This document shows positions 17,063-52,800 of a stretch of 64,000 nucleotides of DNA, one piece after another (within the stretch, counting starts at the first letter, position 1; each line of letters starts with the position of its first letter). Source of the DNA: a virus; the IMG/VR virus record IMGVR_UViG_3300031759_000010. One strand, given 5' to 3'. Under the pieces are notes generated by a model. That model was not told the origin of the DNA. It saw only the letters and a program-made list of their open reading frames with translations, and ran no database searches. A program made the position numbers and the translations under genes.

Positions 17063-17169
17063 GAGGTTATTTTACAACAAAACAATTACTCCTGAGGCAT
17101 GTTTCGTCCTCATACACCAAGGGGCTGACCGCTTATCGCAGCCAGCCCCGAAGCGGTTAAAGATGCCAG

Positions 17170-17544: not shown

Positions 17545-17553
17545 GACTTCTCC

Positions 17554-18438
17554 TTAAATCTGTTGCAACGCCGGGTTCAGAAGCACGTCGCAGGTGGTGT
17601 TGGTCGAAAGATTGGACCACGCCACGCCGAGGTAGTTCTGATACGGGTTGGCTGTTCCCTGGGCTGTGCGTACCACCGTAAACGCGTTCGTCGATGTCAC
17701 CGACATAGACAAAGAGTCTCCGATGACCACCGAGGCCACAGCCGAAACGTTTGGCACCAGTCCGCCGACCGCGATCCAGCACCAGTTGCCATTCAAGGCA
17801 GCCGCTGTTGCACCAGAGGTCGTGTTGGCCAAAAGAACCCCGGCGCATGCGTTCGGGATCATGGCGGCGTTGTTGGTTGTTACGCCATACGCTTCGTTCG
17901 CGTATCCAGAAACCGTCGTGCATGTCGAGTCGGTGTAGTAAACACCGGCCGAGTAGGCCAGCAACGTCGGGTTGTTCTGGCTCGAATAGCGCACATACTT
18001 CACAACCGGAGGAACGCCGTTCGGAACCTTGGAGCCAAAGAAGCAGGTCAACTGGGCCAAGGTAACGCTGGTCGTCGTCGCCTTTGAGAGCGTCAGGGTT
18101 GTCGTGCTCGGGATGGCCGCAATCGTGGTGCCGGTAGGCACACCGGATCCGGTGACCGTCATTCCGACAGACAACTGGGTGGTGTTGGTTACGGCCGTCA
18201 CGTTCACGGATGTGCTGGTCGTGCCAAGCACCGTGGTTGCCGGGGCATAGTTCGTGCTGAACCCGGAGTATTGGGTGAAATACTGCCACGGAAGGCCAGC
18301 ATACACCGCGCCCGGAGGATTCAGTGCGCCATTCGGCCACTGGGTTTGGCTGGTCTGGCTGCCGGTCGCCACATAGGGGTCGATGGCGGTATACAGGTTT
18401 CCAGTCGAGATATTCGGGAAATCAATTCCGTAGCTCAT
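17554..18438 (-). CDS. hypothetical T/S/A/V-rich virion protein (294 aa)
   Basis: Track ORF directly downstream of the capsid-like gene. Composition suggests a surface/decoration protein; that is inference only. Confidence 0.55.
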   Translation of the reverse strand: MSYGIDFPNISTGNLYTAIDPYVATGSQTSQTQWPNGALNPPGAVYAGLPWQYFTQYSGFSTNYAPATTVLGTTSTSVNVTAVTNTTQLSVGMTVTGSGVPTGTTIAAIPSTTTLTLSKATTTSVTLAQLTCFFGSKVPNGVPPVVKYVRYSSQNNPTLLAYSAGVYYTDSTCTTVSGYANEAYGVTTNNAAMIPNACAGVLLANTTSGATAAALNGNWCWIAVGGLVPNVSAVASVVIGDSLSMSVTSTNAFTVVRTAQGTANPYQNYLGVAWSNLSTNTTCDVLLNPALQQI

Positions 18439-18555
18439 TACATGTCTCCTTGAAGGTCTACTGTCCCATTAGTTGTTCCAACTGTTCAACCTCTTCTGAC
18501 TTCTTGTAGTCGAGAAGGTTTTCTCCATCTACAATAGTCGGAACAACAGTTGTTT

Positions 18556-19530
18556 TTAGCCAGTTATACCCGTCAGCACAAAGCCGGTGCGCGGCATCGA
18601 AACAACGACGTCGCCGATAAAGCAAAGCTGTCCAGCGGCCTGCCATGCGTTCGGAAGCTCCTTGAAGCCGGTGAATCCGAAAGCAAACTGCTCCTGCGTC
18701 GAGATGTACACCGTGAGAGCGTTGGTGTTCATGCCGAACAGATAGCCAGCCGGGCAATACTGGTCAACCACAACACGCTGGCCGTTGAAGCGGAACGAGT
18801 TGAAGCCGATGTTCTGGGTGTTGTCCTCGCCAAAGTTATCCATAACGCGCTGCGCCGGGAGCATCTTGGCCCACAGGGCGTTGTAGATGATCTGCGTGGT
18901 TGAGAACAGGTTCGGCTGCATGGGGCCAAACGTCGCCTGACCGTATGCCTTCTGAAGCGTGTTCAGGGAGACGATTCCACCCACGTTCAGGTAGTAACCG
19001 TTGATTCCAGCTGAGGCTCCAGTACCAACCAGCGACCGCGACACGTTGCCGTAGGAGGGATAGTTGGTGCCGTCGTCATATGCGGCCTGTAGGCCGTCCA
19101 GCGCGATGATCGAGGAGTTTGTTCCCTGGCCATCCAGATAGAAGTCGGTAACCAGGTTGGTTGCCATCGCCTGACCGCCGTTCACCATCTGCTGCTCGAC
19201 GTAGCCCATCACACCAGCGCCGCCATGGTTAATGGCAAGCTGCGCCTCGTCGATGGTCACGTTGACGTAATACTGCTTCGGGTTGAAGGTCATCGCAGTG
19301 TCAACCTGAACCTGCGAAATGTCGAAGGTTGAGCCGAAGGTAGTCGCCCCGCCCTTCAGCGGTGCATACTGGAACGGCTGCTGAATCCAGGTGCCGCCGT
19401 TGTAATCGGCTGTCCGATCACCCTTGAACATCAAGTAGAAAACTGGCGAATACTTATAATAGTTGTCCGCCATCTCCGGCACGATGAATGGGAGGGTGAT
19501 CGCATTGATGTTGTTGTAATTCAGCGCCAT
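18556..19530 (-). CDS. putative major capsid protein
   Basis: 324-aa ORF directly downstream of an acidic coiled scaffold-like gene, in portal-scaffold-capsid order. Called from position and size, not from a motif. Confidence 0.55.
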   Translation of the reverse strand: MALNYNNINAITLPFIVPEMADNYYKYSPVFYLMFKGDRTADYNGGTWIQQPFQYAPLKGGATTFGSTFDISQVQVDTAMTFNPKQYYVNVTIDEAQLAINHGGAGVMGYVEQQMVNGGQAMATNLVTDFYLDGQGTNSSIIALDGLQAAYDDGTNYPSYGNVSRSLVGTGASAGINGYYLNVGGIVSLNTLQKAYGQATFGPMQPNLFSTTQIIYNALWAKMLPAQRVMDNFGEDNTQNIGFNSFRFNGQRVVVDQYCPAGYLFGMNTNALTVYISTQEQFAFGFTGFKELPNAWQAAGQLCFIGDVVVSMPRTGFVLTGITG

Positions 19531-19546
19531 TGCTCATTCTCCTTGG

Positions 19547-20206
19547 TTAGCTTGCCCGTTCCAACTGGGACAGCTTCTCGTTCAATACTTCAGCCCGCGT
19601 CTTGCCATCAGCGTTCACGGCCCGCCCAAAAGCCTTCAGGGCCCCACGGACCCCGGTTGCTGCCGCAGGAGTAACCCCGGGAATCGACTGAGAAGAACTC
19701 TTCTCCTTCGCTTTCTCCTCCGCGCGGCGCTCAACCTCAAGCTCCGTGTGGCGGTCGCGGGTCCACTCCTTGTAGGCTTCCTTCGGAGACGAGAAAGTCC
19801 TCCCCGAGTCACCCACAAACTTGTTCAAGGCTTCCAAATCAAGATCCTCGCCAAAGAGCTGCTTGTGCTCGTTGCGGATCTGCATGGTGTCGTCAGCCAT
19901 CCTGATCGCGCGGCCGAGAAAGGCAGAGCCCTCAGCCTGAACAACAGCCTTGGCTTGCTCTTTTGCGATCTCGCTAAACTTCGGCGTCAGAGATGTCTCA
20001 AAATCTGTAAACGATGTCTTCAGGGTCTTGGTCAAATCTTCCAAGGTGAAACCAGAAATAGAGCCAGACTCAGGAATACCCCTTCCATCGTCCAGATAGG
20101 TGACCAGCTCTTCGCCGCGCACCAACTTGTCCGCAAGGCCTGCCGCCTGAATCTTGGCGATTGCGTCTTCCCCGAGAACACCCTTCAGCTCGTCAATGAT
20201 TGCCAT
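19547..20206 (-). CDS. putative scaffolding protein
   Basis: 219 aa, charged and predicted helical (E/K/A-rich), immediately upstream of the capsid-like gene. Confidence 0.45.
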   Translation of the reverse strand: MAIIDELKGVLGEDAIAKIQAAGLADKLVRGEELVTYLDDGRGIPESGSISGFTLEDLTKTLKTSFTDFETSLTPKFSEIAKEQAKAVVQAEGSAFLGRAIRMADDTMQIRNEHKQLFGEDLDLEALNKFVGDSGRTFSSPKEAYKEWTRDRHTELEVERRAEEKAKEKSSSQSIPGVTPAAATGVRGALKAFGRAVNADGKTRAEVLNEKLSQLERAS

Positions 20207-20223
20207 AAAATCCTATCCTCCTG

Positions 20224-20613
20224 TTACGCGCCCGGAACAGCCTCGGGACCTGGTTGCGGCGGAGGAGCCGAAGCCTCAGCCGGTGGGGGTGCTTGTCCGC
20301 CAGGAGCGCCGCCGCCATCAAGAACGGAGGGATCCTGCTTCATAGAGGTTGCAACAAATTTCTTGAGGCTATCCTTGGCCGCATCCAGATTTGGATCCGG
20401 CTTTCCGCCAAGTTTGGCTTCGAGCTTCTTGAAAACCTCAAACACGGCCTTCAATGCCTCGATAACCTCGTCACCTGCCCCACCCTTCTTAGCCGGAGGA
20501 GGCGCTTGACGCATGGACGCGACCCTGGAGTAGTAGTCCGGGGGGGTGGACCCAGAAGGCCCCCCACCGCTGCCGCCGCCGAAGCTGTCCGCTACTACGT
20601 TTGCGTTTGCCAT
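20224..20613 (-). CDS. hypothetical G/P/A-rich protein (129 aa)
   Basis: Track ORF. Confidence 0.45.
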   Translation of the reverse strand: MANANVVADSFGGGSGGGPSGSTPPDYYSRVASMRQAPPPAKKGGAGDEVIEALKAVFEVFKKLEAKLGGKPDPNLDAAKDSLKKFVATSMKQDPSVLDGGGAPGGQAPPPAEASAPPPQPGPEAVPGA

Positions 20614-20621
20614 CTTGTCCC

Positions 20622-20801
20622 TTACTGGTTATCCGGGTAGGCGTTCTTCACGTTGGGAGAGATACCCTTGGCCGGGATCTTTCCGGCATCGTGATAGGAC
20701 ACGCCAATTGCATGAAACACACCCTTCTTCAGCTTTGCCGTCTTGGCTGCTGGTCCGAAGGTGTCTTCCGTCGCCTTGTTGGTCTCAACAAACTTCTTCA
20801 T
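20622..20801 (-). CDS. hypothetical small protein (59 aa)
   Basis: My own translation (below the track size cutoff): MKKFVETNKATEDTFGPAAKTAKLKKGVFHAIGVSYHDAGKIPAKGISPNVKNAYPDNQ. Stop lies 9 nt before the next ATG. Confidence 0.35.
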   Translation of the reverse strand: MKKFVETNKATEDTFGPAAKTAKLKKGVFHAIGVSYHDAGKIPAKGISPNVKNAYPDNQ

Positions 20802-20818
20802 CTGGATTCTCCAGTTGT

Positions 20819-20842
20819 GAGGGGGATGTCTCCATCCCCCTC
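20819..20842. other. perfect 10-bp hairpin GAGGGGGATG-TCTC-CATCCCCCTC
   Basis: Lies between the 22-aa micropeptide ORF and the 59-aa ORF. A T-run follows only on the plus strand (TTGGTTTT). Confidence 0.5.
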
Positions 20843-20865
20843 TTGGTTTTAAATCTGCTGCGTGA

Positions 20866-20934
20866 TTACTTCACGCGCTTTGCGCTACGCTTGCCGTGGC
20901 GCTTTCCACCCTTGCGGCCCTTGTGACGTGCCAT
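20866..20934 (-). CDS. 22-aa Arg/Lys-rich micropeptide candidate
   Basis: My own translation: MARHKGRKGGKRHGKRSAKRVK stop. First ORF of the leftward unit, divergent from the glycosyltransferase cassette. Confidence 0.25.
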   Translation of the reverse strand: MARHKGRKGGKRHGKRSAKRVK

Positions 20935-20938
20935 ATGG

Positions 20939-22309
20939 ATGTACTCCTTTCGTGAAAGGATCGGCGTTTTTAACGTGCCCGTCTCCACGAACACCAAAGT
21001 AACCAAACATGGTTACCTTGGAGTTGATTTAACTGTACCCAATCAGATTGGCGTGTCAAGAGATACGTCCAAATTGACATCTTTTTTCCTCGACCCGTTC
21101 TGCGCCAGAGTAAAATGTTCTTGCGGAGGAGACGTGCCACATAAAATCCTTGTTCTCTCGGACTTACCGACATCCAGCTCTGGATTAGCGAAAATATCGC
21201 GCGAACTGGCGTGCAGAATCAATAAGATGGAAGATTTCGAGGTTGCCAGTTATGGGTCTGGAGGAATCGCCTCCAAGCGCTTCCCGTGGCCACAATGCGA
21301 ACTGGCTGGTCCAAATGCTCTTGCCCCTCAAAATCTCCCAGAAGCATGGACAGACTTCGCCGGAAATGAAAGAGGAACCCTGCTTACGATATGGAATCCG
21401 GGATGGCTCGGGTGGCTTACGCATCCAGAGCTTCTGCCGGACGGGAAGCTGAAAAACTTCATCCAATCCGATCCATTTGATGTTTGGGCATACCTCCCCC
21501 TGGACGCCGAAGGCCCGGACGGCCGCGTACCACTGGGAATTGCGAATATCATCAAGAGGTTCGACCGGCCCCTGGCTTACACGCAATGGGAGGCCGACAT
21601 GATCGACAAGACCATCGGCGGCAACATAGAACATCTTCCACATGGAACCGACTCGTCAATCTTCTATCCGCGAGACAGAGAGTCATCCCGGTCCTCCCTG
21701 GTCAACTTGGTCACAGAAAAAGGCGACTATCCAATCAAAGATGGAACCCTGATGATTGGGGTTGTGGCCACAAACAGCGCCAGAAAGGATTGGCAACTGG
21801 CGTTCCAAGTTGGGCGGGAACTCGTGAATCGCGGACTCAATATCGGCCTCTGGTGCCACACGGATGCCTATGTAAAATACTGGGATATCCCCGCCCTTAT
21901 TGCCGAATACGGGTTGGATGGGAGGGTTATCGTCTCCAACAAACACCTCACCGACAACGAGGTGGCTACCTGCTTTTCCGCCTGCGACGTCACCTTTGGA
22001 ATAGGTAGGGGCGAGGGGTGGGGATTACCCCTAAGCGAATCTCTTGCGGCCGGGACTCCGGTTGTTCATGGAAAATACGCCGGAGCCACCGAATTCATAC
22101 CGCCCAATATGCTCGTTGAGCCCATAGCGCTTTTCAACGACGACTTCTACGGACACCAGAGGCCGGTCTTCAATGTGTCAGACTGGGCAGACAAAACCAT
22201 CTTCGCGGCATCGCTCGGAACCGGAAAATCTCTCCTCGATCCCAAGTTCTACTGGGACAACTGCTGGGCGAGCTGGGAAGAGTGGCTGAAGAGAGGAATT
22301 GCCAAGTGA
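20939..22309 (+). CDS. glycosyltransferase, GT4/GT1-like (GT-B fold)
   Basis: C-terminal GRGEGWGLPLSESLAAGTPVV matches the E-x7-E retaining-GT motif region. The likely true start is GTG 21134, after GGAGGA (VPHKILVLSD...). Confidence 0.75.
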   Translation: MYSFRERIGVFNVPVSTNTKVTKHGYLGVDLTVPNQIGVSRDTSKLTSFFLDPFCARVKCSCGGDVPHKILVLSDLPTSSSGLAKISRELACRINKMEDFEVASYGSGGIASKRFPWPQCELAGPNALAPQNLPEAWTDFAGNERGTLLTIWNPGWLGWLTHPELLPDGKLKNFIQSDPFDVWAYLPLDAEGPDGRVPLGIANIIKRFDRPLAYTQWEADMIDKTIGGNIEHLPHGTDSSIFYPRDRESSRSSLVNLVTEKGDYPIKDGTLMIGVVATNSARKDWQLAFQVGRELVNRGLNIGLWCHTDAYVKYWDIPALIAEYGLDGRVIVSNKHLTDNEVATCFSACDVTFGIGRGEGWGLPLSESLAAGTPVVHGKYAGATEFIPPNMLVEPIALFNDDFYGHQRPVFNVSDWADKTIFAASLGTGKSLLDPKFYWDNCWASWEEWLKRGIAK

Positions 22310-23715
22310 GAATCTGTCTGGTTACTCCACCCAGCCCATTCCTCCTCGACCAGCGGGTCTTTGTCTCTCTCGGAATCCTGAAGGTCGGAGCCGTACTTGA
22401 GCGCCAAGGGTTCTCCGTTGACCACGTTGACCTGACTGGAGTCTCCAACTACGAGGAGGCTATAAGGGACTACCCCCACAAAGACGCAATCTTCGCCCTC
22501 ACGGCAACCACCCCTCAAATGCCATCCGCGATAGCCATCAGATCTGCCCTTGCAGGCTCTCGCACCATCCTGGGAGGCCCACATACCACCCTAATCAACG
22601 CAGCGGCCAAGAAGGGCAACCAGAGGTCAGCAGAGATGCTGTCAGAGCTGGTCTCCATATTTGGAACAGTGGTCGCCGGAGATGGAGAGAAGTCAATTTT
22701 CACCGCCATACACCAGCGGGGGCTTATTGACGCCGACGACCCCAAGTCGATCCTCTGGAATACCTCCAAAGACTTCACAGATGACCCATGGCCAGCCCGT
22801 CACCTGGTGGACATGTCTTCCTACCACTACACGGTAGACGGAAGAAAGTCATACTCTCTGATCGGCCAAACCGGGTGCCCGATGCACTGCAACTTCTGCG
22901 GAGGAAGAAACTCTCCCATGTTGAGGCAGATTCGCAAGCGGTCCACAGAAAACATCGTCGCCGAAATGATGCACCTTCACGACGTGTATGGTGCCGATGG
23001 AGCCATGTTTTACGACGACGAACTCAATATCAACAAAAGCATCATCCCACTGATGAGGCAAATTGCCAACACCGGGGTTGACTGGCGTCTGCGCGGATTC
23101 GTGAAGTCTGAATTGTTCACCGAAGAGCAGGCGGAGTCGATGTATGCGGCCGGTTTTCGCTGGCTTCTCTGTGGATTCGAGGCGGCGCATCCGCGCATCC
23201 TCCGCAATATCGCCAAAAACGCCACCGTCCAAGACAACACTAACATGCTAAGAATCGCCCACAAGCACGGCTTAAAGGTCAAAGCCCTCATGAGCGTCGG
23301 CCACCCCGCAGAGAGCGAAGAGACAATCCTCGCCATGCGCGACTGGCTGCTCGACGAAAAGCCCGACGACTTCGACGTAACCGTGATCACTGTGTATCCG
23401 GGAACTCCGTACCATGACAGCGCTATCGAGGTCGCGCACCCGATATACAGGTTCGACACGTTTGGCGATTCTCTCTACTTTGAGAGCGTTGACTTCAACA
23501 AAGAGCAAGCCTTTTACAAGGGAAAGCCGGGAGAATACCGCTCCTATGTGTGGACAGACTTCATTTCGCGCGAACGCCTGGCGCAGATGCGAGATGAGAT
23601 AGAAGATGAGGTGCGGTCAAAACTGTCCATCCCTTACCCCACGGCGGCGGAAGCAGTAGCCTATGAACACAGCATGGGCATGAGCCTGCCCACCAACATA
23701 TTGAGGACAAAATGA
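22282..23715 (+). CDS. B12-binding-domain radical SAM protein
   Basis: CPMHCNFCGG is a CxxxCxxC 4Fe-4S/SAM motif. The N-terminal VRICLVTPP...ILGGPHTT resembles a cobalamin-binding Rossmann domain. Probable start is GTG 22306, overlapping the upstream TGA. Confidence 0.8.
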   Translation: MAEERNCQVRICLVTPPSPFLLDQRVFVSLGILKVGAVLERQGFSVDHVDLTGVSNYEEAIRDYPHKDAIFALTATTPQMPSAIAIRSALAGSRTILGGPHTTLINAAAKKGNQRSAEMLSELVSIFGTVVAGDGEKSIFTAIHQRGLIDADDPKSILWNTSKDFTDDPWPARHLVDMSSYHYTVDGRKSYSLIGQTGCPMHCNFCGGRNSPMLRQIRKRSTENIVAEMMHLHDVYGADGAMFYDDELNINKSIIPLMRQIANTGVDWRLRGFVKSELFTEEQAESMYAAGFRWLLCGFEAAHPRILRNIAKNATVQDNTNMLRIAHKHGLKVKALMSVGHPAESEETILAMRDWLLDEKPDDFDVTVITVYPGTPYHDSAIEVAHPIYRFDTFGDSLYFESVDFNKEQAFYKGKPGEYRSYVWTDFISRERLAQMRDEIEDEVRSKLSIPYPTAAEAVAYEHSMGMSLPTNILRTK

Positions 23716-24245
23716 ACATTGAGAAAGCCCTCGCAACACCCGGATGGATGGGGGAAAGGGACCTGGAGTACCTTGCCCATGCCGCATCCAAATCCTCAAC
23801 CATCGTTGAAGTAGGGTCGTGGATGGGACGCAGCACCCTGGCCCTGGCCTGCAATACCGCCGGAACAATCTATGCCGTGGATACATGGCAAGGAACCGAA
23901 CAGCAGGGCGACTTTTTGGCAGACAAGGATCCGGACTGGCTCCTTGGAGAATTCAGAAAATACACCTCATGCGCGGCAAATATCATCATCTGCAAGGGGC
24001 CATCGGCAGATATCGCCGCATCCTTTCCAGACATCACCGCCGACCTGATCTTCATCGATGGGTATCACACCTATGAAGGAGTGAGAGACGACATCCTGGC
24101 ATGGAGACCCAAACTTCGCCCCGGAGGAATCCTCTGCGGACACGATTACGGAGCCCCGCCTTGGGATGGAGTCAAGCAGGCGGTGGATGAGCTGGTACCC
24201 AAGTTTCGCATTATCGATTCAATCTGGACTACGGAGGAAGAGTGA
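23712..24245 (+). CDS. class I SAM-dependent methyltransferase (Methyltransf_24-like)
   Basis: VEVGSWMGRST (glycine-rich SAM loop) and FIDGYHTYEGV...GGILCGHDY pattern. 4-nt overlap with the radical SAM gene. Confidence 0.75.
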   Translation: MNIEKALATPGWMGERDLEYLAHAASKSSTIVEVGSWMGRSTLALACNTAGTIYAVDTWQGTEQQGDFLADKDPDWLLGEFRKYTSCAANIIICKGPSADIAASFPDITADLIFIDGYHTYEGVRDDILAWRPKLRPGGILCGHDYGAPPWDGVKQAVDELVPKFRIIDSIWTTEEE

Positions 24246-24892
24246 GCGATTACAAGATGTGGATTCCATACCTTAACCGTCCCGACCTTCTCGATACGGC
24301 CGTAAGGTCATCTGAAGCCTACGGTTCAAACCGTATCATTATTGACAACTCCCCAGAAGGCCTGCCAACAGACACCTGGATGCACTGGCATGGAGTCTAC
24401 GTTCTTCGCCCCCTGGTTCCCCTTTCATGCCCCCAAACCTTCAACTACATCATGAGGACGACACAAGAACAGGGAGCAAACATCTGCATCTGGATGCACA
24501 ACGACGCCGAGCCCCACCCAGGCGTATGCGAAGAGCTTCTCAAGATCGCGCGTCAGTCCAACCTTCAAGGCAGAAAGTGGGGAGTCCTGTGGACCCACTA
24601 CGACACGCTGTCGGCTATCAACACAGATTTACTGTCGGCAGGCGTCGAGTGGGACACAACCTTTTGGCAGTATTTTTGCGACAACGACTTCTATCGGAGG
24701 GTTCGTCTGGCTGGATACGAGTGCATTGACACTGGTCTTCAGGTGAACCACCCCGGAAGCCAGACCATCAACAGCGATCCAGCCATAAAACTGAAGAACA
24801 ATGCAACCTTCATGCTCTACAGGGACTACTACATCCGCAAGTGGGGCGGAGAGCCGGGGCACGAAGCATTTACAACCCCATTCGGAGTCTAA
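24242..24892 (+). CDS. glycosyltransferase family 2-like protein
   Basis: N-terminal IPYLNRPDLLDTAV...IIIDNSP is typical of small GT-A enzymes. 4-nt overlap with the upstream gene. Confidence 0.55.
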   Translation: MSDYKMWIPYLNRPDLLDTAVRSSEAYGSNRIIIDNSPEGLPTDTWMHWHGVYVLRPLVPLSCPQTFNYIMRTTQEQGANICIWMHNDAEPHPGVCEELLKIARQSNLQGRKWGVLWTHYDTLSAINTDLLSAGVEWDTTFWQYFCDNDFYRRVRLAGYECIDTGLQVNHPGSQTINSDPAIKLKNNATFMLYRDYYIRKWGGEPGHEAFTTPFGV

Positions 24893-26716
24893 CTACTTCT
24901 TCTTCCCAGATTCCTTTGCTTGGTGGGCAGCCTGCCCCATAGCCATGGCCATCTGCGCCTTCTTCGCGGACTCTTCGTCGAGGCGGCGCTGAATCAGTGA
25001 GATGTTCAGGTTCGCGTTGAACTTGGAGTTCAGGAACTCAAGGAAGGTGGTGTGATCAATCTCACCCGCCCTGCGAAGCTGCGACATCTGCGCCAGCTCA
25101 TCCGTGCGCTCAATCGCCAGCAAAGAACCACGGCGAATCGTAAACGACACGTTGCGAACGAAATCCTCGGGCTCCATGGTGGCTGGGCAGAGGTGCTTGT
25201 AGTAGGGGTGGAAGTCGGAGTCGGTCAATCCCTTCGATCCATACTGAGCCACGCGCTTATCGGCCGTCTCAAACTGCAACATGTTGCTGACAACCATCAC
25301 GCCGACCTCTTCCATAAAAGACTGGAGGCCGCGCCCATACAGGCGAATGTTTCCCGCCCGCGAGTTGACAATCATTTCCAGGGAATCGCCGCCCGGAATC
25401 TGTTTCTTCTGGAGGGTCTGGTTCACTGCCGCCGCGCCAGAGTTCATCGCCATCTCCTTGTCGATTCCGTCACGCATCGGCATGGTGTAGTTGCCAAGCT
25501 CGGGAGGCTTGCGAAACTCAGGAGGACGAGGAGAGTTGTTGCGGTAGAAAATCTTGCCACCAGGGGCTCCGGGGTCAATTGAGTCTTTGTCCTGATCGCT
25601 AAACGCCGCCATAGGGGCCATCATCGTCGGCTCTATAGTGGAGTTGATTACATCCAGAACTCCTCCCTCAATCCGATTCAAAATAGCCTGCATGGCGCAC
25701 AGGGGATCCATGATGCTTTGACCGGCAAACTTCCACGGAACGCGGAGTGGGCGATAGATCGCGAACGGAAACCGGCCGTGCCAATATGGATTCGGCGCAT
25801 CCTCAAGAACCCTTCCTCCGGCCACCGCCAACACGCGGCCACGAGGATACTTCGGCATGCCCGGTTCAACCCGATACGACCAGCAGGCGTTCGGATCTCC
25901 AATGATTATCGACTCCGACCCATCCCAAATGCTGTCGTCCTTAAACCAGAACTCCTTGTAAATCACCTTGGGAAACTTGGTGGTTGGAGCCCCGGCCCCA
26001 GAGTTGGCCAATTTGGAGTGGATGTTCCTCATCAAAGGACTCAATTTGGCCCAGCGGCGAGAAGACACAGCGTTCGGCCTTTGCGGGGTAGCCGACATCT
26101 CCGACTCGATGTCAGGCTGAACTCCGTAAGCAACCTCCCCAAACCGGCGGACCAGCCATGGCTTGGTAACCACCCGGCGAACAATGCAAACCTCAGCCTC
26201 GGCCTGAAGACGGCCAGAAGCGCCAATCTGAAGAAAATCGAGGGGCGACAGCGGCTGGAAATCGTTGCTTCCCATGCCGTTTCGCAGATAGGGGTTCCAC
26301 TGAACCTTGACGGGACCATAGGAGATCAGGCCATACATGACCACCTGAACCAGTTCCTGCTCGAAATCGGACATATACGTCCAATCCGTGAGCATCCGAT
26401 TCATCAGGCTTTCGACTTCAGAGTAGTTCTCGTCCGCATCGGTGAACTTGACCCGGACATCCGGCTGAATATCGGTGAGCATCGACGCCATCTCGACAAA
26501 CTGACGAACAACGCGATTAGCCACCGGACGTGAGCGTCCGTGCCTGGCCGTTGAAGCCCACTGTTTTCCCTCAAGGAAGTCGATGACTCTCTGAACCTGT
26601 TTCGATTCGGGAGACGACATAAGCTCTGAATCGGCTTCCTCATAGACAGAATTTGCCCAATCGAGGACTTCGGCTTCCAGCTTAACTTCGGGGCGCTCTT
26701 GTAGGGAGGCGTTCAC
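24893..26716 (-). CDS. putative portal protein
   Basis: 607-aa ORF one gene downstream of the large terminase. Called from size and position. Confidence 0.6.
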   Translation of the reverse strand: MNASLQERPEVKLEAEVLDWANSVYEEADSELMSSPESKQVQRVIDFLEGKQWASTARHGRSRPVANRVVRQFVEMASMLTDIQPDVRVKFTDADENYSEVESLMNRMLTDWTYMSDFEQELVQVVMYGLISYGPVKVQWNPYLRNGMGSNDFQPLSPLDFLQIGASGRLQAEAEVCIVRRVVTKPWLVRRFGEVAYGVQPDIESEMSATPQRPNAVSSRRWAKLSPLMRNIHSKLANSGAGAPTTKFPKVIYKEFWFKDDSIWDGSESIIIGDPNACWSYRVEPGMPKYPRGRVLAVAGGRVLEDAPNPYWHGRFPFAIYRPLRVPWKFAGQSIMDPLCAMQAILNRIEGGVLDVINSTIEPTMMAPMAAFSDQDKDSIDPGAPGGKIFYRNNSPRPPEFRKPPELGNYTMPMRDGIDKEMAMNSGAAAVNQTLQKKQIPGGDSLEMIVNSRAGNIRLYGRGLQSFMEEVGVMVVSNMLQFETADKRVAQYGSKGLTDSDFHPYYKHLCPATMEPEDFVRNVSFTIRRGSLLAIERTDELAQMSQLRRAGEIDHTTFLEFLNSKFNANLNISLIQRRLDEESAKKAQMAMAMGQAAHQAKESGKKK

Positions 26717-26760
26717 GCTTGGATTTTATCCTGACATCACTGTTTTGTCGCGAGTTACGT

Positions 26761-27294
26761 CTATTCCTGTGAACCCTGCCCCTGTAGACCCTTGGCCGCA
26801 TTGGCAAACAGGGCCGCCAAACGCTGGGAGTCGCGCGTAACCTGCTCGTTCTCGGCAACCAGACGAGCGTTGTCCTCAACCACAGCCAAAATGTCCTCCT
26901 GCTTGCGAATGTTGGACTTTTGCAGCTTCCTCACCGTATCCCCGGTCAGAAACAAAAAGTCGTCATCCAGCATGGTTGAGAGAACAGAGTTCAAGGTAGA
27001 GTTCACGCGCCCCGAGAATTTAGAGGAAAAGCGATTCCAGATATCCTTCCGCAGCCAGCACTCCGCCTTCACGTCCAGGGTAGGATTCGGAATCTCCTTG
27101 GTGACGAACGGCACCATGTCAGGGTGCATAGACTGAAGCTGCATATAGGGAATCTCGTGGCCAACATCACACTTAAACAGGTGGGCAGAGCGCTTCAGGT
27201 TGACATCTCTCACCCCGCGCGTATCCCTGCACATTGGGCAATACATACCACTTTCCGCACTCATGGGCGGTAAAAACTGACCCGTCGTCGCCAT
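26761..27294 (-). CDS. hypothetical zinc-ribbon plus coiled-coil protein
   Basis: CPMC...C..GH near the N-terminus. Sits between the terminase and portal genes. Confidence 0.5.
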   Translation of the reverse strand: MATTGQFLPPMSAESGMYCPMCRDTRGVRDVNLKRSAHLFKCDVGHEIPYMQLQSMHPDMVPFVTKEIPNPTLDVKAECWLRKDIWNRFSSKFSGRVNSTLNSVLSTMLDDDFLFLTGDTVRKLQKSNIRKQEDILAVVEDNARLVAENEQVTRDSQRLAALFANAAKGLQGQGSQE

Positions 27295-27306
27295 TACTCC
27301 TCCAAA

Positions 27307-29520
27307 CTACCAATCATCATTGTAGCCGACCAACTCCTCCGCGCTCGATCCGGAACGGGCGGACTCCCTCCAGTTGCGGAACGCAGAAACCATCTCGGGC
27401 GTTATCTCTTGATCTGGAACACCTAGAACCCTCTTTGCCTGATACTGTATGCTACTTCCGGAGTAGCCCGGCGGAGAGGATTGGTGAATCGGGGAAACCA
27501 GGGGGTTCGCTGCCGCAAAAGCCCAGTGAGGACTGACTGTGTATACCCCCTTCAGCCCCTTGATCGCCCTCTCGGCGTCCTCCCGGCGCTGGAAAACACC
27601 ATCCGCAATTGGACGCATCGCTGAGTCGCGGATAACCCACGGACCCTGCCACGAAAAAGGCAGAGATCCCCAAATCTTCCCCTCGGCATCGCGTGGCTGC
27701 GCCATCGCCAAACCTGGAGACTCTCTCACCGACTGTAGCGTCTCACGCAGGCAATAGAGACAAATTGTCGAAGCCAGCACTCCGTCGTCGTTGGAATCAA
27801 CACCCTCGTATCTCTTGCGCCCCGGCCCCTCGTCGAGGGTTGCGAAGTCGCCCATCTCATCCAAAAGATCATGTGAGTAGATGACAATCGAATCAGTCAG
27901 AAGGGCATCGCGCATCTCGTCAATCACCAGGTCGCGCGTCTTGATTGAAGTCACCCAGTGAAGGTAGGGGGTGAAGGTTGTTTGAACCCTGTCCTTATGT
28001 CTCGGCCTCCACAGGTTTGGATAGTCCATATCGACCAAGGCGTCTCCGGTGGTGATTCCGGGTCCATTGTATTCATTTGTCACCTCAGCCCCGTTATACC
28101 AATACCCCAGGGCGGCCACGATTCCGGCAAATCTCTTCGGCGATTCCCAGCCCCACCACTCGGCAACCTGAACGTCTTTCTGCCCCAGAGACCCGGCCAT
28201 AAACACCTCAGCCACGCTATAGTCTCCGCCATTTCCAAGAGCAGCATCCGAGCCGACATAGTAAGACCTTCCCGGCTCAGGCAAATGCCAAACATGAAGA
28301 CGGTGACCACCTTTTCCACGCTTGCGAACAGGAAGATCTTCCCCCGGATCCACGGCGCGAATATCAAGCTCCTCGCGCTTTCCTCTGAGACGAATCTCTC
28401 CCGCATAAGCAGGATTCTTAGGGGCCCTCATTCTCTGCTCATCCATAGCATCGCGATCAAAGGCGCACAGGCCGGAGTTCTGGAACGCCTCTTCCGGGGT
28501 AATCGGGTAGGACTCCAGAAAACCGGCTTTGTTCTTTTTGGAACGCTTCAGGCCAAAATGGCGAAACTTCCAAAAACCGAGAGGAATTTCGTATTTTTGC
28601 TCCTTTTTCACCCGGTCATGAAACACCTGCTCAGTCTCGCTGAGGACGATATTGTCCGACTTTGAAACCGGAAGAAAATACTTCCTAACCCGATAGGTAG
28701 GAACAAATACCGGACGCCATCCGGTATCGCCAGCCACCGTATCTTGCCACCAATCGTAGAAAAGGCCATTCTTTCCCAGACCAGTTGATTCCATCACATA
28801 GAACCCATCAATAGCGTTCATTGAGGGAAGAATGTCAGCCTCAAAAACCTGAGCATCAGGCCAGCGCGAAACCTCGCTATAGTGGCCACTCCGTATGCTG
28901 CGGCCGATAGCCACGCCGCTCATCTTTTGAGCGTGAGAGATCTTCAACACAGATCCCAAGCCGGGATCGGACATAACCTGGTCCTCACCCTCGCGTTGAA
29001 AGTCAATACCTTCCGCGACCGACTTGTATCTCCACTCCGGCCTCATCCACCACGGGAGATTCTCATACGCCTTCACAGACATCTTGTAGATGTGTGTGGA
29101 CACAACTTTATCCTGAGCGACAATCAAGGTGAAGGTGTGGGGATAGAAGATCGTGCGGTGGAACATGTGCGCCTGAATATGTGTGCTGCCGCCAAACTGA
29201 CGCCCCTTGAGAAGAATCAGCTTGCAGCATCCGTTGTTCTCCCACTCCTCCTTCATTGCCGCGCTGACGATCTCCTGCTGATCCCAGTACGGATACAGGG
29301 TTTTCAGTTCGCCATTTTCGGTTGTGATTGTAAAGTAGTTTTTCGTCCAGTAGTCGGGATCAATGCACCTCTCCAGCTCCTCGTTGATCCAATCGTTTTC
29401 CGAGCGAGACAAGGCGGCGCTGGCCTCATCAACAGCATTGTTCCCGTGGAATCTTGCGAAGTGGCGCTCCAGCTCCTCGATGGCGTCGTTCAGGTCGGGG
29501 TCTTGTCTAGGAAGCCTCAT
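27307..29520 (-). CDS. terL: terminase large subunit
   Basis: 737 aa. Walker-A-like KGRQFGGST and an acidic nuclease-half pattern. Sits adjacent to the small-subunit-like and portal-like genes. Confidence 0.7.
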   Translation of the reverse strand: MRLPRQDPDLNDAIEELERHFARFHGNNAVDEASAALSRSENDWINEELERCIDPDYWTKNYFTITTENGELKTLYPYWDQQEIVSAAMKEEWENNGCCKLILLKGRQFGGSTHIQAHMFHRTIFYPHTFTLIVAQDKVVSTHIYKMSVKAYENLPWWMRPEWRYKSVAEGIDFQREGEDQVMSDPGLGSVLKISHAQKMSGVAIGRSIRSGHYSEVSRWPDAQVFEADILPSMNAIDGFYVMESTGLGKNGLFYDWWQDTVAGDTGWRPVFVPTYRVRKYFLPVSKSDNIVLSETEQVFHDRVKKEQKYEIPLGFWKFRHFGLKRSKKNKAGFLESYPITPEEAFQNSGLCAFDRDAMDEQRMRAPKNPAYAGEIRLRGKREELDIRAVDPGEDLPVRKRGKGGHRLHVWHLPEPGRSYYVGSDAALGNGGDYSVAEVFMAGSLGQKDVQVAEWWGWESPKRFAGIVAALGYWYNGAEVTNEYNGPGITTGDALVDMDYPNLWRPRHKDRVQTTFTPYLHWVTSIKTRDLVIDEMRDALLTDSIVIYSHDLLDEMGDFATLDEGPGRKRYEGVDSNDDGVLASTICLYCLRETLQSVRESPGLAMAQPRDAEGKIWGSLPFSWQGPWVIRDSAMRPIADGVFQRREDAERAIKGLKGVYTVSPHWAFAAANPLVSPIHQSSPPGYSGSSIQYQAKRVLGVPDQEITPEMVSAFRNWRESARSGSSAEELVGYNDDW

Positions 29521-52727: not shown

Positions 52728-52800
52728 CCGTTACTTTCGTGATGTAGACAGTCAATCAGACACCCTGTAGAGTGGTTTGTGACATCGAGGGAGGTGAGGT

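What the first reader, a model, noticed from the sequence alone, without database searches (positions are those of the whole stretch)
20939..24892. Opposite-strand cassette inside the virion operon: GT-B glycosyltransferase, B12-binding radical SAM enzyme, SAM methyltransferase and GT-A glycosyltransferase
Four translationally coupled plus-strand genes (overlaps GTGA, ATGA, ATGA) sit between the scaffold/capsid genes and the portal gene. All of those neighbours are on the minus strand. Motifs seen: EGWGLPLSESLAAGTPVV (GT4-like); CPMHCNFCGG plus an N-terminal cobalamin-type domain (class B radical SAM, typically C-methylation or other difficult alkylations); VEVGSWMGRS / FIDGYHTY (class I methyltransferase); and a short GT2-like protein. 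Virion glycosylation by phage-encoded glycosyltransferases is known for some mycobacteriophages. I know of no described phage system that couples glycosyltransferases with a B12-radical SAM enzyme. Candidate roles: building a methylated glycan on capsid or tail proteins, modifying host surface polysaccharide (superinfection exclusion / seroconversion), or modifying another macromolecule. The inverted orientation and divergent 200-bp leader (20935-21133) suggest an independently regulated moron.
Basis: partly seen in the sequence, partly recalled or inferred. Interest (0 to 1): 0.75.

Follow-up and report, generated by a model that had tools for sequence, protein, structure and literature searches.

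The report
Phage glycan cassette with radical-SAM enzyme
An uncultured phage carries an inserted four-gene module (two sugar-adding enzymes, a methyltransferase and a B12-type radical SAM enzyme), and that radical enzyme belongs to a large uncharacterised family that sits in sugar-chain gene clusters of many phages and bacteria, so it points to an unknown sugar modification.

Summary
Four overlapping + strand genes lie between the portal gene and the scaffold/capsid genes, which are on the - strand. They are a GT4-type GT-B glycosyltransferase (true start GTG 21134), a class-B-architecture radical SAM enzyme (22306-23715), a Methyltransf_24 methyltransferase and a GT-A-fold glycosyltransferase.

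A close relative (portal 74%, capsid 94% identical) lacks the whole ~3.8-kb block. It has only a terminator and a promoter at that site, so the block is an inserted moron.

The new result concerns the radical SAM enzyme.
- It is not a one-off. It belongs to a conserved family with 98 IMG/VR matches, 381 GTDB genome matches and 227 clusters at E<=1e-30.
- Its neighbours are mostly glycosyltransferases, sugar-nucleotide enzymes and methyltransferases, in phages and in bacteria (for example an LPS-type cluster in Nitrospira moscoviensis).
- Some bacteria fuse it to a GT4 or to a glucose-1-phosphate cytidylyltransferase.
- No cultured phage has it, and I found no paper that characterises it.

Its nearest solved structures are AprD4 (a sugar diol-dehydratase), TsrM and MgmA, so its chemistry is unresolved (C-methylation or dehydration). 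The acceptor is also unresolved (virion protein or host envelope glycan). I rate it a new variant of a known kind, of moderately high interest.

The parts
21060..21133 (+). Short 5' leader of the cassette. It runs from the insertion junction, just beyond the -35 box of the divergent head promoter, to the GT-B start. It contains a TAAAAT -10-like hexamer and a GGAGGA Shine-Dalgarno sequence 3 nt before GTG.
   Evidence: Sequence. Homology with the cassette-less relative L167 stops at the TTGACA box. The scan found no canonical sigma-70 promoter on the + strand, and there is no Rfam or riboswitch match.
21134..22309 (+). GT-B fold, GT4-like (retaining-type EX7E motif) glycosyltransferase, 391 aa.
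   Evidence: PF00534 3.5e-7, above its cut-off. PHROG 2170 'glycosyltransferase', 4.8e-26. PDB sequence matches to a D-inositol-3-phosphate glycosyltransferase (7qsg) and to glycosyltransferase B736L (3oy2). No transmembrane segment.
22306..23715 (+). Radical SAM enzyme with class B architecture, 469 aa. It has an N-terminal B12-binding-like Rossmann domain and a radical SAM barrel with C191-x3-C195-x2-C198. It is the most conserved gene of the cassette.
   Evidence: PF04055 6.6e-20 and PF02310 1.1e-5, the latter below its cut-off. NCBIfam best hits are HpnJ, PhpK, AprD4 and BchE, all far below their family cut-offs. AF2 model pLDDT 88.7. Foldseek top matches are AprD4, TsrM, MgmA, OxsB and CysS. 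Residues invariant in all 45 aligned relatives include the three Cys and G90-G91 (H93 also invariant).
23712..24245 (+). Class I SAM-dependent methyltransferase, Methyltransf_24 family (a related viral homologue also matches the CmcI / rhamnosyl O-methyltransferase family), 177 aa.
   Evidence: PF13578 3.1e-23. Related viral copies also hit PF04989 RMNT_CmcI. Methyltransf_24 is the most frequent Pfam family among the immediate neighbours of the radical SAM gene in viral loci.
24242..24892 (+). Small GT-A fold (GT2-like) glycosyltransferase, 216 aa.
   Evidence: No Pfam hit. PHROG 29879 'galactosyl transferase', 1e-13. A family profile hits GmaR at 5e-4. AF2 pLDDT 96.1. Foldseek matches AvpGT, WrtF, RmlT and TarP. 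Some homologues are fused to a Methyltransf_24 domain (P0200, P0208).
21061..25001 (.). Extent of the insertion/deletion relative to the closest cassette-less relative (L167). The portal's last ~25 codons and its terminator are replaced on one side. The junction on the other side lies just outside the head-operon -35 box.
   Evidence: blastn: L167 585-2275 aligns to window 26692-25002, and L167 2485-4974 aligns to window 21021-18556. The alignment extends the homology to the TTGACA box. L167 has a terminator plus a promoter in the ~60-bp gap.
21032..21059 (-). Sigma-70-like promoter (TTGACA-16-TACAGT) of the scaffold/capsid operon, divergent from the cassette. It is conserved in position in L167 (TTGACA-16-TACTCT).
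17554..18438 (-). Candidate acceptor (inference only). A 294-aa protein encoded directly after the major capsid gene. It is 26% Ser+Thr and has 7 N-x-S/T sites. It diverges faster than the capsid protein.
   Evidence: Composition. In L175 it is 65.6% identical while the capsid protein is 96% identical. It has a marginal PDB hit to a phage 'Decoration protein', 8eci, E=0.016. It has no PHROG hit.
18556..19530 (-). Major capsid protein. It flanks the cassette's side of the head operon and is an alternative candidate acceptor.
   Evidence: PHROG 9953 major head protein, 3.3e-22.
24893..26716 (-). Portal protein (SU10-type). It is convergent with the cassette, and its stop codon directly abuts the GT-A stop codon with no spacer.

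Best explanation
The block is an accessory ('moron') glycan-building cassette inserted between the portal gene and the head-assembly operon of an uncultured podovirus-like phage. The two soluble glycosyltransferases (GT4-type GT-B and a small GT-A) transfer sugars from host nucleotide-sugar pools onto an acceptor. The Methyltransf_24 enzyme methylates a sugar hydroxyl or amine. The radical SAM enzyme carries out a radical modification of a sugar, either at the nucleotide-sugar stage or on the glycan. I think this is most likely a B12-dependent C-methylation at an unactivated carbon, as GenK and Fom3 do (my knowledge of those enzymes). The next most likely chemistry is an AprD4-like dehydration or deoxygenation. 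I commit to virion surface proteins as the most likely acceptor, namely the capsid protein or the Ser/Thr-rich protein encoded just after it, which would give the particle a methyl-decorated glycan coat. Shown here: gene content, folds, the insertion, and the family-wide link of this radical SAM enzyme to glycan clusters. Inferred: the chemistry, cobalamin use and the acceptor. My step probabilities are: glycan cassette 0.85; radical SAM enzyme acts on a sugar 0.75; C-methylation 0.45, dehydration 0.3, other 0.25; acceptor virion 0.45, host envelope 0.35.
For: Folds and families are. The insertion is shown against L167.

The radical SAM family is tied to sugars in four ways. (1) In 80 IMG/VR loci, 57 have an annotated sugar gene within six genes; GDP-mannose-dehydratase-like SDRs occur in 39 loci, and DegT, UDP-glucose dehydrogenase, PfkB, GT4, GT2, GT11 and NeuB also recur. 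(2) The commonest Pfam families among its +/-2 neighbours are Methyltransf_24, GT2, epimerase/GMD and GT_PLOD in viruses, and GT4, Glyco_trans_1_2, Methyltransf_11, GT2, GT9 and GMD in GTDB genomes. (3) In Nitrospira moscoviensis it lies between GT9, GT4 and GT2 genes, GMD and an ABC transporter. (4) It is fused in one ORF to a GT4 (L093) and to a glucose-1-phosphate cytidylyltransferase (L131 and L141; 8.5e-40).

The radical SAM gene is far more conserved than its partners: 65-81% identity against 28-58%.

Points favouring a virion acceptor: the cassette lies inside the head module and diverges from the head promoter. Cultured Pontimonas phage phiPsal1 has the order capsid, GT-B, methyltransferase, GT2, neck, and its GT2 is 29% identical to the window's GT-A. 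None of the four proteins has a membrane segment. The only PDB sequence relative of the GT-A is GmaR, which to my knowledge is the Listeria flagellin O-GlcNAc transferase. A fast-evolving Ser/Thr-rich protein is encoded next to the capsid gene. Virion glycosylation by phage glycosyltransferases is established in mycobacteriophages Che8, Corndog and Myrna (PMC12363180 and PMC11256854, both citing Freeman 2023).
Against: There is no direct evidence for any substrate, product or acceptor. In bacteria the same radical SAM family sits in LPS-type clusters, which fits envelope glycans as well as it fits virion glycans. Authors describing similar clusters in pelagimyophages favoured modification of the host O-chain (PMC7029224). 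Position within a structural operon is typical of morons in general and says little about function. The nearest solved structure is AprD4, which is not a methyltransferase and, to my knowledge, does not use B12. The Pfam B12-binding score is below its cut-off. The window's glycosyltransferases have no detectable homology to mycobacteriophage glycosyltransferases. The decoration-protein assignment of the 294-aa protein rests on E=0.016.
Confidence: 0.45

Rival explanations
1. The biochemistry is the same, but the acceptor is a host envelope glycan (LPS core or O-antigen, or exopolysaccharide) built on a lipid carrier in the cytoplasm. The phage remodels the cell surface during infection or lysogeny. 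This would block superinfection by competitors or stop progeny from re-adsorbing to debris.
For: Bacterial homologues of the radical SAM enzyme sit in LPS-type clusters with GT9 heptosyltransferase, GMD and an ABC transporter. Many viral loci carry complete sugar-nucleotide pathways typical of O-antigen clusters. This is the published interpretation for glycosyltransferase-rich regions of pelagimyophages, where radical SAM cassettes were also noted (PMC7029224), and for viruses of methanogens (PMC9723712). A serine recombinase at 59177-60019 leaves a temperate lifestyle possible.
Against: None of the four cassette proteins has a membrane segment, so no Gtr-type membrane component lies within the cassette. 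The cassette lies in the head module next to a late-type promoter, not near lysogeny genes. The closest cultured-phage analogue of the GT-B / methyltransferase / GT-A trio lies between the capsid and neck genes.
Confidence: 0.33
2. This rival concerns the chemistry and is independent of the acceptor. The radical SAM enzyme is not a B12-dependent methyltransferase. It is an AprD4-like, cobalamin-independent enzyme that abstracts a sugar hydrogen and dehydrates, deoxygenates, epimerises or rearranges the sugar. All methylation is left to the class I methyltransferase.
For: AprD4 is the best match by sequence (2.3e-16 alone, 7.4e-19 with the family profile) and by structure. The top NCBIfam hit is HpnJ, which to my knowledge acts on an aminosugar moiety. 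SDR-type enzymes that could reduce a keto-deoxy product occur in 39 of 80 viral loci. The Pfam B12-binding score is below its cut-off.
Against: The whole protein, including the N-terminal domain, also aligns with the B12-dependent methyltransferases PhpK and HpnR. It matches TsrM, MgmA, OxsB and CysS structurally. G90 and G91 are invariant in the Rossmann domain, and to my knowledge a GG motif is typical of cobalamin-binding domains. The window cassette has no reductase partner. To my knowledge most characterised class B members are methyltransferases. Scores against the AprD4 and HpnJ models are far below their family cut-offs (66 against 500, and 82 against 578).
Confidence: 0.3
3. The cassette hypermodifies phage DNA by glycosylating hydroxymethylated bases and then tailoring the sugar, which would protect the genome from host nucleases.
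For: Phage glycosyltransferases that decorate DNA with diverse glycans are known (bioRxiv 10.1101/2023.12.21.572611, listed). In about a dozen viral loci the radical SAM gene lies next to a dCMP deaminase.
Against: No hydroxymethylase, TET/JBP-type or thymidylate-synthase-like gene appeared among the window ORFs I scanned. The bacterial homologues lie in envelope-glycan clusters, not in nucleotide-metabolism contexts. The preprint on DNA-glycosylating glycosyltransferases has no occurrence of 'radical SAM'.
Confidence: 0.05
4. The cassette makes or tailors a small glycosylated metabolite (aminoglycoside- or nucleoside-like), or it is a decaying passenger with no current role.
For: The nearest structural relatives AprD4 and OxsB, and AvpGT for the GT-A, appear (from their PDB entry titles and my knowledge) to act on aminoglycoside or nucleoside-type small molecules.
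Against: There is no scaffold-forming gene. All four ORFs are intact, tightly overlapped and identical across samples. The radical SAM gene is under strong conservation. The family context is polysaccharide-type, not a secondary-metabolite cluster.
Confidence: 0.05

Closest known systems
Mycobacteriophage virion glycosylation (Che8 gp110, Corndog gp38, Myrna; Freeman et al. 2023, as cited in PMC12363180 and PMC11256854)
   Same: These are phage-encoded soluble glycosyltransferases that attach glycans to virion proteins. In both cases the genes are accessory to the structural genes.
   Different: At E<=1e-3 the window's GT-B has no detectable homologue in any Mycobacterium phage, and the GT-A's only cultured-phage hit is Pontimonas phage phiPsal1. 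No radical SAM enzyme was mentioned for that system in the secondary sources I could read; I could not read the primary paper. The host is probably not an actinobacterium. The acceptor here is untested.
Pontimonas phage phiPsal1 head-module trio (capsid, group I GT, SAM methyltransferase, GT2, neck)
   Same: It has the same three enzyme classes inside the head module. Its GT2 is the only cultured-phage homologue of the window's GT-A (29% identity, 1e-10).
   Different: It has no radical SAM gene. It is a siphovirus of an actinobacterium. The genes are only annotated, not studied.
AprD4 (PDB 6fd2), radical SAM 1,2-diol dehydratase of apramycin biosynthesis
   Same: It is the best sequence and structure match. 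It has the same two-domain architecture of a B12-like Rossmann domain plus a radical SAM barrel, and its substrate is a sugar.
   Different: Identity over the Foldseek structural alignment is only about 17-18%. The NCBIfam AprD4 model scores 66 bits against a cut-off of 500. The context is an aminoglycoside pathway with the reductase AprD3, not a glycan cluster.
Class B (cobalamin-dependent) radical SAM methyltransferases such as TsrM, MgmA, CysS, PhpK, HpnR, GenK and Fom3
   Same: The domain architecture is shared, there is a single CxxxCxxC cluster, and TsrM, MgmA and CysS are structural matches. From my own knowledge, GenK methylates a sugar carbon and Fom3 acts on a cytidylylated substrate. 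The latter is echoed by the cytidylyltransferase fusion in L131.
   Different: No curated family model is reached. Neither cobalamin binding nor methyl transfer has been demonstrated.
Glycosyltransferase-rich hypervariable 'host recognition clusters' of pelagimyophages (PMC7029224)
   Same: These are uncultured phages with clusters of glycosyltransferases and sugar-nucleotide genes in which 'radical SAM cassettes' come and go. Several of my T4-like loci (gp32 adjacent; L036, L044, L051, L056) look like this.
   Different: That paper did not analyse the radical SAM gene or assign it to a family. The cassette here is minimal (four genes), lies in a podovirus-like head module, and has no sugar-nucleotide synthesis genes.

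Membership tests
Radical SAM superfamily | CxxxCxxC motif for the [4Fe-4S] cluster, and a Pfam PF04055 score above the gathering threshold | tested here: met
   The motif is C191-P-M-H-C195-N-F-C198, and all three Cys are invariant in 45 relatives. PF04055 scores 72.4 bits against a cut-off of 29.5.
Radical SAM superfamily | Partial TIM-barrel fold matching solved radical SAM enzymes | tested here: met
   The AF2 model has pLDDT 88.7. Foldseek probability is 1.00 to AprD4, TsrM, MgmA, OxsB, CysS, RimO and MiaB.
Class B (cobalamin-dependent) radical SAM enzymes | N-terminal Rossmann-type B12-binding domain preceding the radical SAM domain | tested here: inconclusive
   The model has such a domain, and it aligns with TsrM, MgmA and OxsB and with PhpK and HpnR. 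However, PF02310 scores 25.6 bits, below its cut-off of 32.1. AprD4 has the same architecture and, to my knowledge, does not use B12.
Class B (cobalamin-dependent) radical SAM enzymes | Actual binding of cobalamin, and methyl transfer via methylcobalamin | not testable with these tools
   This needs purified protein (UV-vis, metal and cofactor analysis, and the SAH to 5'-dA stoichiometry).
AprD4 family diol-dehydratases (NF033070) and HpnJ (TIGR03471) | Score at or above the curated equivalog cut-off | tested here: not met
   AprD4 scores 66.1 bits against a cut-off of 500. HpnJ scores 81.9 bits against 577.6.
GT4 / GT-B glycosyltransferases | PF00534 above threshold, and an EX7E motif in the C-terminal Rossmann domain | tested here: met
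   PF00534 scores 30.4 bits against a cut-off of 26.4. The motif is E-GWGLPLS-E. PHROG 2170 scores 4.8e-26.
GT-A fold (GT2-like) glycosyltransferases | GT-A Rossmann-like fold | tested here: met
   The AF2 model has pLDDT 96.1. Foldseek matches AvpGT, WrtF, RmlT and TarP with probability 1.00.
GT-A fold (GT2-like) glycosyltransferases | Pfam GT2 membership and a canonical DxD motif | tested here: inconclusive
   There is no Pfam hit for the window protein, and only 2 of the 91 listed homologues carry PF00535. The conserved acidic residues are D88 in an H-x-D context and D147-x-D149. I cannot say which of these binds the metal.
Methyltransf_24 class I methyltransferases | PF13578 above threshold, with the SAM-binding glycine motif | tested here: met
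   PF13578 scores 83.1 bits against a cut-off of 26.3. The motifs are VEVGSWMG and FIDGYH.
Mycobacteriophage-type virion glycosylation system | Homology of the glycosyltransferases to the proven virion glycosyltransferases | tested here: not met
   tblastn of the GT-B and the GT-A against 50,697 phage genomes returned no Mycobacterium phage at E<=1e-3.
Mycobacteriophage-type virion glycosylation system | Glycans covalently attached to capsid or tail proteins | not testable with these tools
   This needs virions or co-expression, followed by mass spectrometry.
Gtr-type seroconversion modules | Membrane proteins: a GtrA flippase, a GtrB bactoprenol glycosyltransferase and a GtrC-type transferase | tested here: not met
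   The maximum 19-residue Kyte-Doolittle hydropathy is 0.7-1.5 in all four proteins, so there are no transmembrane segments.
Phage DNA glycosylation systems | A base hydroxymethylase or dioxygenase that creates the acceptor base | tested here: inconclusive
   None was found among about 40 window ORFs scanned or looked up. Many window ORFs have no detectable family at all.
Phage moron (accessory insertion) | Present or absent between close relatives at a defined junction, with its own orientation and translation signals | tested here: met
   L167 (capsid 94%, portal 74% identical) lacks the block. The junction lies between the portal terminator and the head promoter. The cassette is on the opposite strand and has its own Shine-Dalgarno sequence.

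The most novel reading that the evidence does not exclude
The 469-aa protein represents an uncharacterised, ancient and widely mobile clade of class-B-type radical SAM enzymes. Its job would be to install an unusual modification, such as a C-methyl branch or a radical deoxygenation, on nucleotide sugars or glycans. Hundreds of phage lineages would carry it to give their virions, or their host's surface, a sugar that common lectins, glycosidases, receptors or antibodies cannot recognise. That would be a new enzymatic step in glycan diversification, and the first radical SAM chemistry tied to phage glycans.
Probability: 0.35. Interest if true: 0.8.

Novelty: new variant of a known kind. Interest (0 to 1): 0.6.

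Why it matters
Phage-encoded glycosylation is known, but it has been studied almost only in actinophages and giant viruses, and with ordinary glycosyltransferases and methyltransferases. This cassette adds a radical SAM enzyme.

That enzyme defines a large, conserved, uncharacterised family. The family is shared between many uncultured phage lineages (including marine T4-like phages and contigs of more than 200 kb) and bacterial LPS-type clusters. Gene fusions tie it to glycosyltransferases and to a sugar-1-phosphate cytidylyltransferase.

Working out its reaction would add a new step to sugar biochemistry. It would also explain a recurrent 'radical SAM cassette' in phage glycan islands. A cultured bacterium, Nitrospira moscoviensis, carries a homologue at 53% identity, and the window cassette is a minimal four-gene unit that could be synthesised and expressed. 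If the acceptor is the virion, glycan shielding of phage particles would extend beyond mycobacteriophages to environmental phages.

Tried and rejected
- **DNA similarity to cultured phages.** Megablast of window 17000-30000 found nothing.
- **Streptomyces phage SF3.** It is the only cultured-phage hit for the radical SAM protein (30% identity over 42% of the query). Its gene lies next to thymidylate kinase and NUDIX genes, so it is a different family and context.
- **B12 riboswitch or other RNA element in the leader or cassette.** There is no Rfam match at E<=1. The negative folding z-score of 20936-21140 mostly reflects the conserved head-operon leader on the other strand.
- **Canonical + strand promoter for the cassette.** The consensus scan found none.
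- **More relatives of the phage, to score presence or absence of the cassette.** The portal scan of IMG/VR gave only three loci. The capsid scan of metagenome contigs gave one contig, which ends before the junction.
- **DNA-modification genes in the window.** None were found.
- **Mycobacteriophage methyltransferase homologues.** The OmniCritical O-methyltransferase is not next to any annotated glycosyltransferase, so it is not informative.
- **Freeman et al. 2023.** The paper is not held, so I used secondary citations.
- **C-terminal extension of the L142 radical SAM ORF.** It has no PDB relative.
- **Joint clustering of viral and bacterial neighbours.** Single-linkage clustering merged glycosyltransferases with the radical SAM proteins through fusion proteins. 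I replaced it with per-protein Pfam scans.
- **Foreign-origin test by composition.** The cassette's GC (0.53-0.56) matches the rest of the phage, so composition gives no sign of recent foreign origin.
- **Cobalamin binding.** I could not test it, because model coordinates and cofactor docking are not available with these tools.

Full report
**1. The observation**

The ORF list shows four + strand ORFs at 20939-22309, 22282-23715, 23712-24245 and 24242-24892. Everything around them is on the - strand:
- the major capsid gene 18556-19530 (PHROG major head protein, 3e-22);
- a scaffold-position gene 19547-20206;
- small ORFs up to 20935;
- the portal 24893-26716 (PHROG portal; PF23899 SU10_portal);
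- the large terminase 27307-29520.

The radical SAM gene starts at GTG 22306, which agrees with the 469-aa database protein that is 100% identical (P0001).

The GT-B gene starts at GTG 21134, three bases after GGAGGA. The longer ORF from ATG 20939 cannot be coding for GT-B. Window 20936-21059 is conserved in a relative that has no GT-B at all, and there it is the promoter and leader of the head operon.

The same cassette, with an identical radical SAM protein, is found on contigs from six JGI samples.

**2. What the four proteins are**

*Gene 1 (391 aa).* It passes PF00534 (30.4 bits against a cut-off of 26.4) and matches PHROG 2170 'glycosyltransferase' at 4.8e-26. It has the EX7E motif. Its PDB relatives are a D-inositol-3-phosphate glycosyltransferase (7qsg) and glycosyltransferase B736L (3oy2).

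*Gene 2 (469 aa).*
- It scores 72.4 bits on PF04055. It scores 25.6 bits on PF02310 (B12-binding), below the cut-off of 32.1.
- NCBIfam finds only far-sub-threshold similarity to HpnJ, PhpK, AprD4, BchE, the MCR glutamine C-methyltransferase, HpnR and others.
- An AlphaFold model built on 45 relatives has pLDDT 88.7.
- Its best PDB matches are AprD4 (6fd2), TsrM (6wte/6wtf), MgmA (9ccb), OxsB and CysS. Sequence searches of the PDB give the same order.
- The three cluster cysteines are invariant, and there is no second cysteine cluster.

Whether it binds cobalamin cannot be decided here. G90 and G91 are invariant in the Rossmann domain (H93 is also invariant), and to my knowledge a GG motif is typical of cobalamin-binding domains. 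On the other hand AprD4 shares the architecture and, to my knowledge, works without B12.

*Gene 3 (177 aa).* It is a clear Methyltransf_24 member (83 bits). Related viral copies also match the CmcI / rhamnosyl O-methyltransferase family.

*Gene 4 (216 aa).*
- It has no Pfam hit, but it matches PHROG 29879 at 1e-13.
- It has 91 homologues, some annotated GT2 and some fused to a Methyltransf_24 domain (P0200, P0208).
- A family profile hits GmaR at 5e-4. To my knowledge GmaR is the Listeria flagellin O-GlcNAc transferase.
- Its model (pLDDT 96.1) is GT-A fold, matching AvpGT, WrtF, RmlT and TarP.

None of the four proteins has a membrane segment.

**3. The block is an insertion**

IMG/VR contig L167 has a portal 74% identical and a capsid protein 94% identical to the window's, but no cassette.
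- L167 585-2275 aligns with window 26692-25002.
- L167 2485-4974 aligns with window 21021-18556.

In L167 the portal stop is followed by a GC-rich hairpin with a T-run, then TTGACA-16-TACTCT, then a conserved leader and a 22-codon basic ORF. The window has the equivalent TTGACA-16-TACAGT at 21059-21032 on the - strand, and homology starts exactly at that box.

The cassette therefore occupies the gap between the portal terminator and the head promoter. The terminator is gone, and the stop codons of the portal and GT-A genes now abut.

The acidobacterial phage Tunturi_1 is the best cultured-phage match to the capsid protein by E-value (23% identity, 2e-12). It has the same gene order and carries an HNH endonuclease in the same gap, so this is an insertion-prone site. 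The cassette's GC content equals that of the phage.

**4. The radical SAM gene is the interesting part**

*Distribution.*
- No cultured phage among 50,697 genomes has it. The only hit, Streptomyces phage SF3, is 30% identical over 42% of the query and sits in a nucleotide-metabolism context.
- The large protein collection returned 4,628 proteins at E<=1e-10, and the top 120 are almost all at least 63% identical to the query.
- The 50%-identity representative library has 227 clusters at E<=1e-30.
- IMG/VR has 98 confirmed relatives. These lie on contigs from under 5 kb to 393 kb, and some are T4-like, with gp32 nearby.
- GTDB species genomes have 381 relatives, mostly Nitrospirota, Elusimicrobiota, Patescibacteria and Acidobacteriota. 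They include the cultured Nitrospira moscoviensis at 53% identity.

*Gene neighbourhood.* I clustered all ORFs of the 80 viral loci and annotated cluster representatives with Pfam.
- The recurrent neighbours are GDP-mannose-dehydratase/epimerase-type SDRs (39 loci), DegT aminotransferases (18), UDP-glucose dehydrogenase (16), Methyltransf_24 (15), PfkB sugar kinases (15), cupins, several GT4 clusters, GT2, GT10, GT11 and NeuB.
- 57 of 80 loci have at least one of these within six genes of the radical SAM gene.
- I scanned the +/-2 neighbours of 37 non-redundant viral loci. The commonest families were Methyltransf_24 (8), GT2 (5), epimerase/GMD (4), GT_PLOD (4), Glyco_trans_1_2 (4), GT1 (4) and UDP-galactopyranose mutase (3).
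- The same scan for 37 bacterial loci gave GT4 (13), Glyco_trans_1_2 (12), Methyltransf_11 (12), GT2 (10), GT9 (4) and GMD (4).
- In N. moscoviensis the gene order is methyltransferase, GT2, GT4, GT9 heptosyltransferase, Glyco_trans_1_2, radical SAM, GT4, GT2, and then, after three ORFs I did not scan, GMD and an ABC transporter.

*Fusions.* Two kinds of single-ORF fusion link the family to sugars physically. One is radical SAM plus GT4 in an Elusimicrobiota genome (L093). The other is radical SAM plus glucose-1-phosphate cytidylyltransferase in two Acidobacteriota genomes (L131 and L141; 8.5e-40 to RfbF-type enzymes).

*Conservation.* The radical SAM gene is much more conserved than its partners.
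- In the nearest viral loci it is 65-81% identical, while the GT-B is 35-41%, the methyltransferase 28-47% and the GT-A 40-58%.
- All eight nearest viral loci have a Methyltransf_24 gene within three genes of it.
- A relative at 80% identity sits in a larger + strand block with several glycosyltransferases and three methyltransferases. That block is flanked by - strand genes, one of which is related to a Tunturi phage 'lytic tail protein'.

I conclude that this is a glycan-cluster enzyme that acts on a sugar. The window cassette is a minimal version: two transferases, one O- or N-methyltransferase and the radical enzyme, with no sugar-nucleotide synthesis genes.

**5. Mechanism**

Shown here: the folds, the insertion and the glycan association.

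Inferred:
- (a) The two glycosyltransferases build a short glycan from host nucleotide sugars.
- (b) The Methyltransf_24 enzyme methylates a heteroatom on a sugar.
- (c) The radical SAM enzyme abstracts a hydrogen from a sugar carbon.

For (c) I give C-methylation via methylcobalamin 0.45. My reasons are the class B architecture, full-length alignment to PhpK and HpnR, and the structural matches to TsrM, MgmA and CysS. From my own knowledge, GenK (sugar carbon) and Fom3 (cytidylylated substrate) are precedents, and the cytidylyltransferase fusion echoes Fom3. I give AprD4-like dehydration 0.3, because AprD4 is the best sequence and structure match and SDR neighbours are frequent. I give other rearrangements 0.25.

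For the acceptor I favour virion proteins (0.45). The reasons are:
- the position inside the head module, back to back with the head promoter;
- the capsid, GT-B, methyltransferase, GT2, neck arrangement in Pontimonas phage phiPsal1, whose GT2 is the only cultured-phage homologue of gene 4;
- the absence of membrane components;
- the GmaR resemblance;
- a 294-aa protein just after the capsid gene that is 26% Ser/Thr, diverges much faster than the capsid protein (65.6% against 96% in L175) and has a marginal match to a phage decoration protein.

Host envelope glycan remodelling (0.35) is nearly as good. It is supported by the LPS-type bacterial contexts and by the published reading of similar phage regions (PMC7029224; PMC9723712).

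DNA glycosylation is unlikely. I found no hydroxymethylase-type gene in the window, although some distant viral loci place the gene beside a dCMP deaminase.

**6. Comparison with what is known**

Virion glycosylation by phage glycosyltransferases is established for mycobacteriophages Che8, Corndog and Myrna (PMC12363180 and PMC11256854, citing Freeman 2023). The window's glycosyltransferases show no detectable homology to any Mycobacterium phage gene, and no radical SAM enzyme was mentioned for that system in the secondary sources I could read. The primary paper was not available to me.

My ten literature searches included queries pairing radical SAM or B12 terms with phage, glycosyltransferase, O-antigen or capsid. 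They found only passing mentions:
- B12-binding radical SAM enzymes counted in viruses of methanogens;
- a 'radical SAM maturase' next to a DegT-like gene in a cyanophage, interpreted there as antibiotic synthesis.

BFVD holds only distant viral structural relatives, at no more than 15% identity.

**7. Verdict**

It is not a singular oddity. It is a compact member of a widespread, unstudied pairing of glycan genes with a particular class-B-type radical SAM family. I rate it a new variant of a known kind (phage accessory glycosylation modules), with interest 0.6. The enzyme family has a tractable minimal cassette and a cultured bacterial carrier, and that is where the value lies.

Noticed in passing
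P0119, P0057, P0102, P0111 and many 780-930-aa representatives: Many homologues of the radical SAM enzyme carry inteins (Hint / intein-splicing Pfam domains). In P0119 the intein sits exactly at the first cysteine of the CxxxCxxC motif: the N-extein ends ...AQLG, the intein starts CLTGDT and ends ...VHN, and the C-extein resumes CPFHCKFCGG. The split alignments suggest there may be other insertion points.
   Followed up: partly
L002:9522-10010, and homologues in L008, L055 and L058: An HNH/AP2-type homing-endonuclease-like ORF lies within a few genes of the radical SAM gene in four viral loci. Together with the inteins, this suggests that selfish elements target this conserved gene.
   Followed up: partly
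L093:7956-10511; L131:7989-10346; L141; L142:7962-10916: There are bacterial single-ORF fusions of the radical SAM enzyme with a GT4 glycosyltransferase (L093) and with a glucose-1-phosphate cytidylyltransferase (L131 and L141). L142 has a 480-aa C-terminal extension with no PDB relative.
   Followed up: partly
window 20870-20935 (-): A 22-codon, extremely basic ORF (MARHKGRKGGKRHGKRSAKRVK) opens the head operon. It is conserved in the relative L167 (MARHKGRKGGKRSHKRGSKRSK), as is the ~90-nt leader with a hairpin that precedes it. It may be an internal or DNA-binding peptide, or a regulatory leader.
   Followed up: no
window 24890-24895: The portal and GT-A genes converge with their stop codons directly adjacent and no terminator between them, whereas the cassette-less relative has a clear terminator after the portal gene. 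Transcription from each side should therefore run antisense into the other.
   Followed up: partly
window 17554-18438 (-): A 294-aa protein downstream of the capsid gene is 26% Ser+Thr with seven N-x-S/T sites. It has no PHROG family and a marginal hit to a phage decoration protein (8eci, E=0.016). It evolves much faster than the capsid protein.
   Followed up: partly
window 16157-17062 (-): An HNH endonuclease gene lies inside the structural module. The called gene varies in length (249, 250 and 298 aa) among otherwise near-identical contigs L081-L083. Further HNH genes lie at 37347-37823 and 62561-63115.
   Followed up: no
window 52000-64000; 59177-60019 (+): This part of the window has higher GC (0.57-0.63 against about 0.55). 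It encodes a small serine recombinase (Resolvase domain, 1.2e-34) and a DUF932 protein. Whether it is still phage, a lysogeny module or something else was not resolved.
   Followed up: no
L033 with L071 (IMGVR_UViG_3300042528_000138); L031 with L072 (3300044729_002129); L029; L045: Some viral contigs carry two divergent paralogues of the radical SAM gene (for example 51% and 45% identity to the window protein), either about 20 kb apart or within the same sugar cluster.
   Followed up: no
Tunturiibacter phages Tunturi_1 and Tunturi_2 (PP887698.1, PP885685.1); L170: By E-value, the best cultured-phage match to the window's capsid protein, and the only cultured-phage matches to the two L170 flanking proteins I queried, are phages of the acidobacterium Tunturiibacter. 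Several close homologues of the cassette proteins come from Acidobacteriota MAGs. This is a weak hint that the host is an acidobacterium.
   Followed up: partly
L171:7649-8713 and L172:498-1562: In the relative at 72% identity, a DUF5131 (PF07505) protein lies two genes upstream of the radical SAM gene, with one small ORF between them, and a CxxCxxCC protein lies nearby. Their roles are unknown.
   Followed up: no
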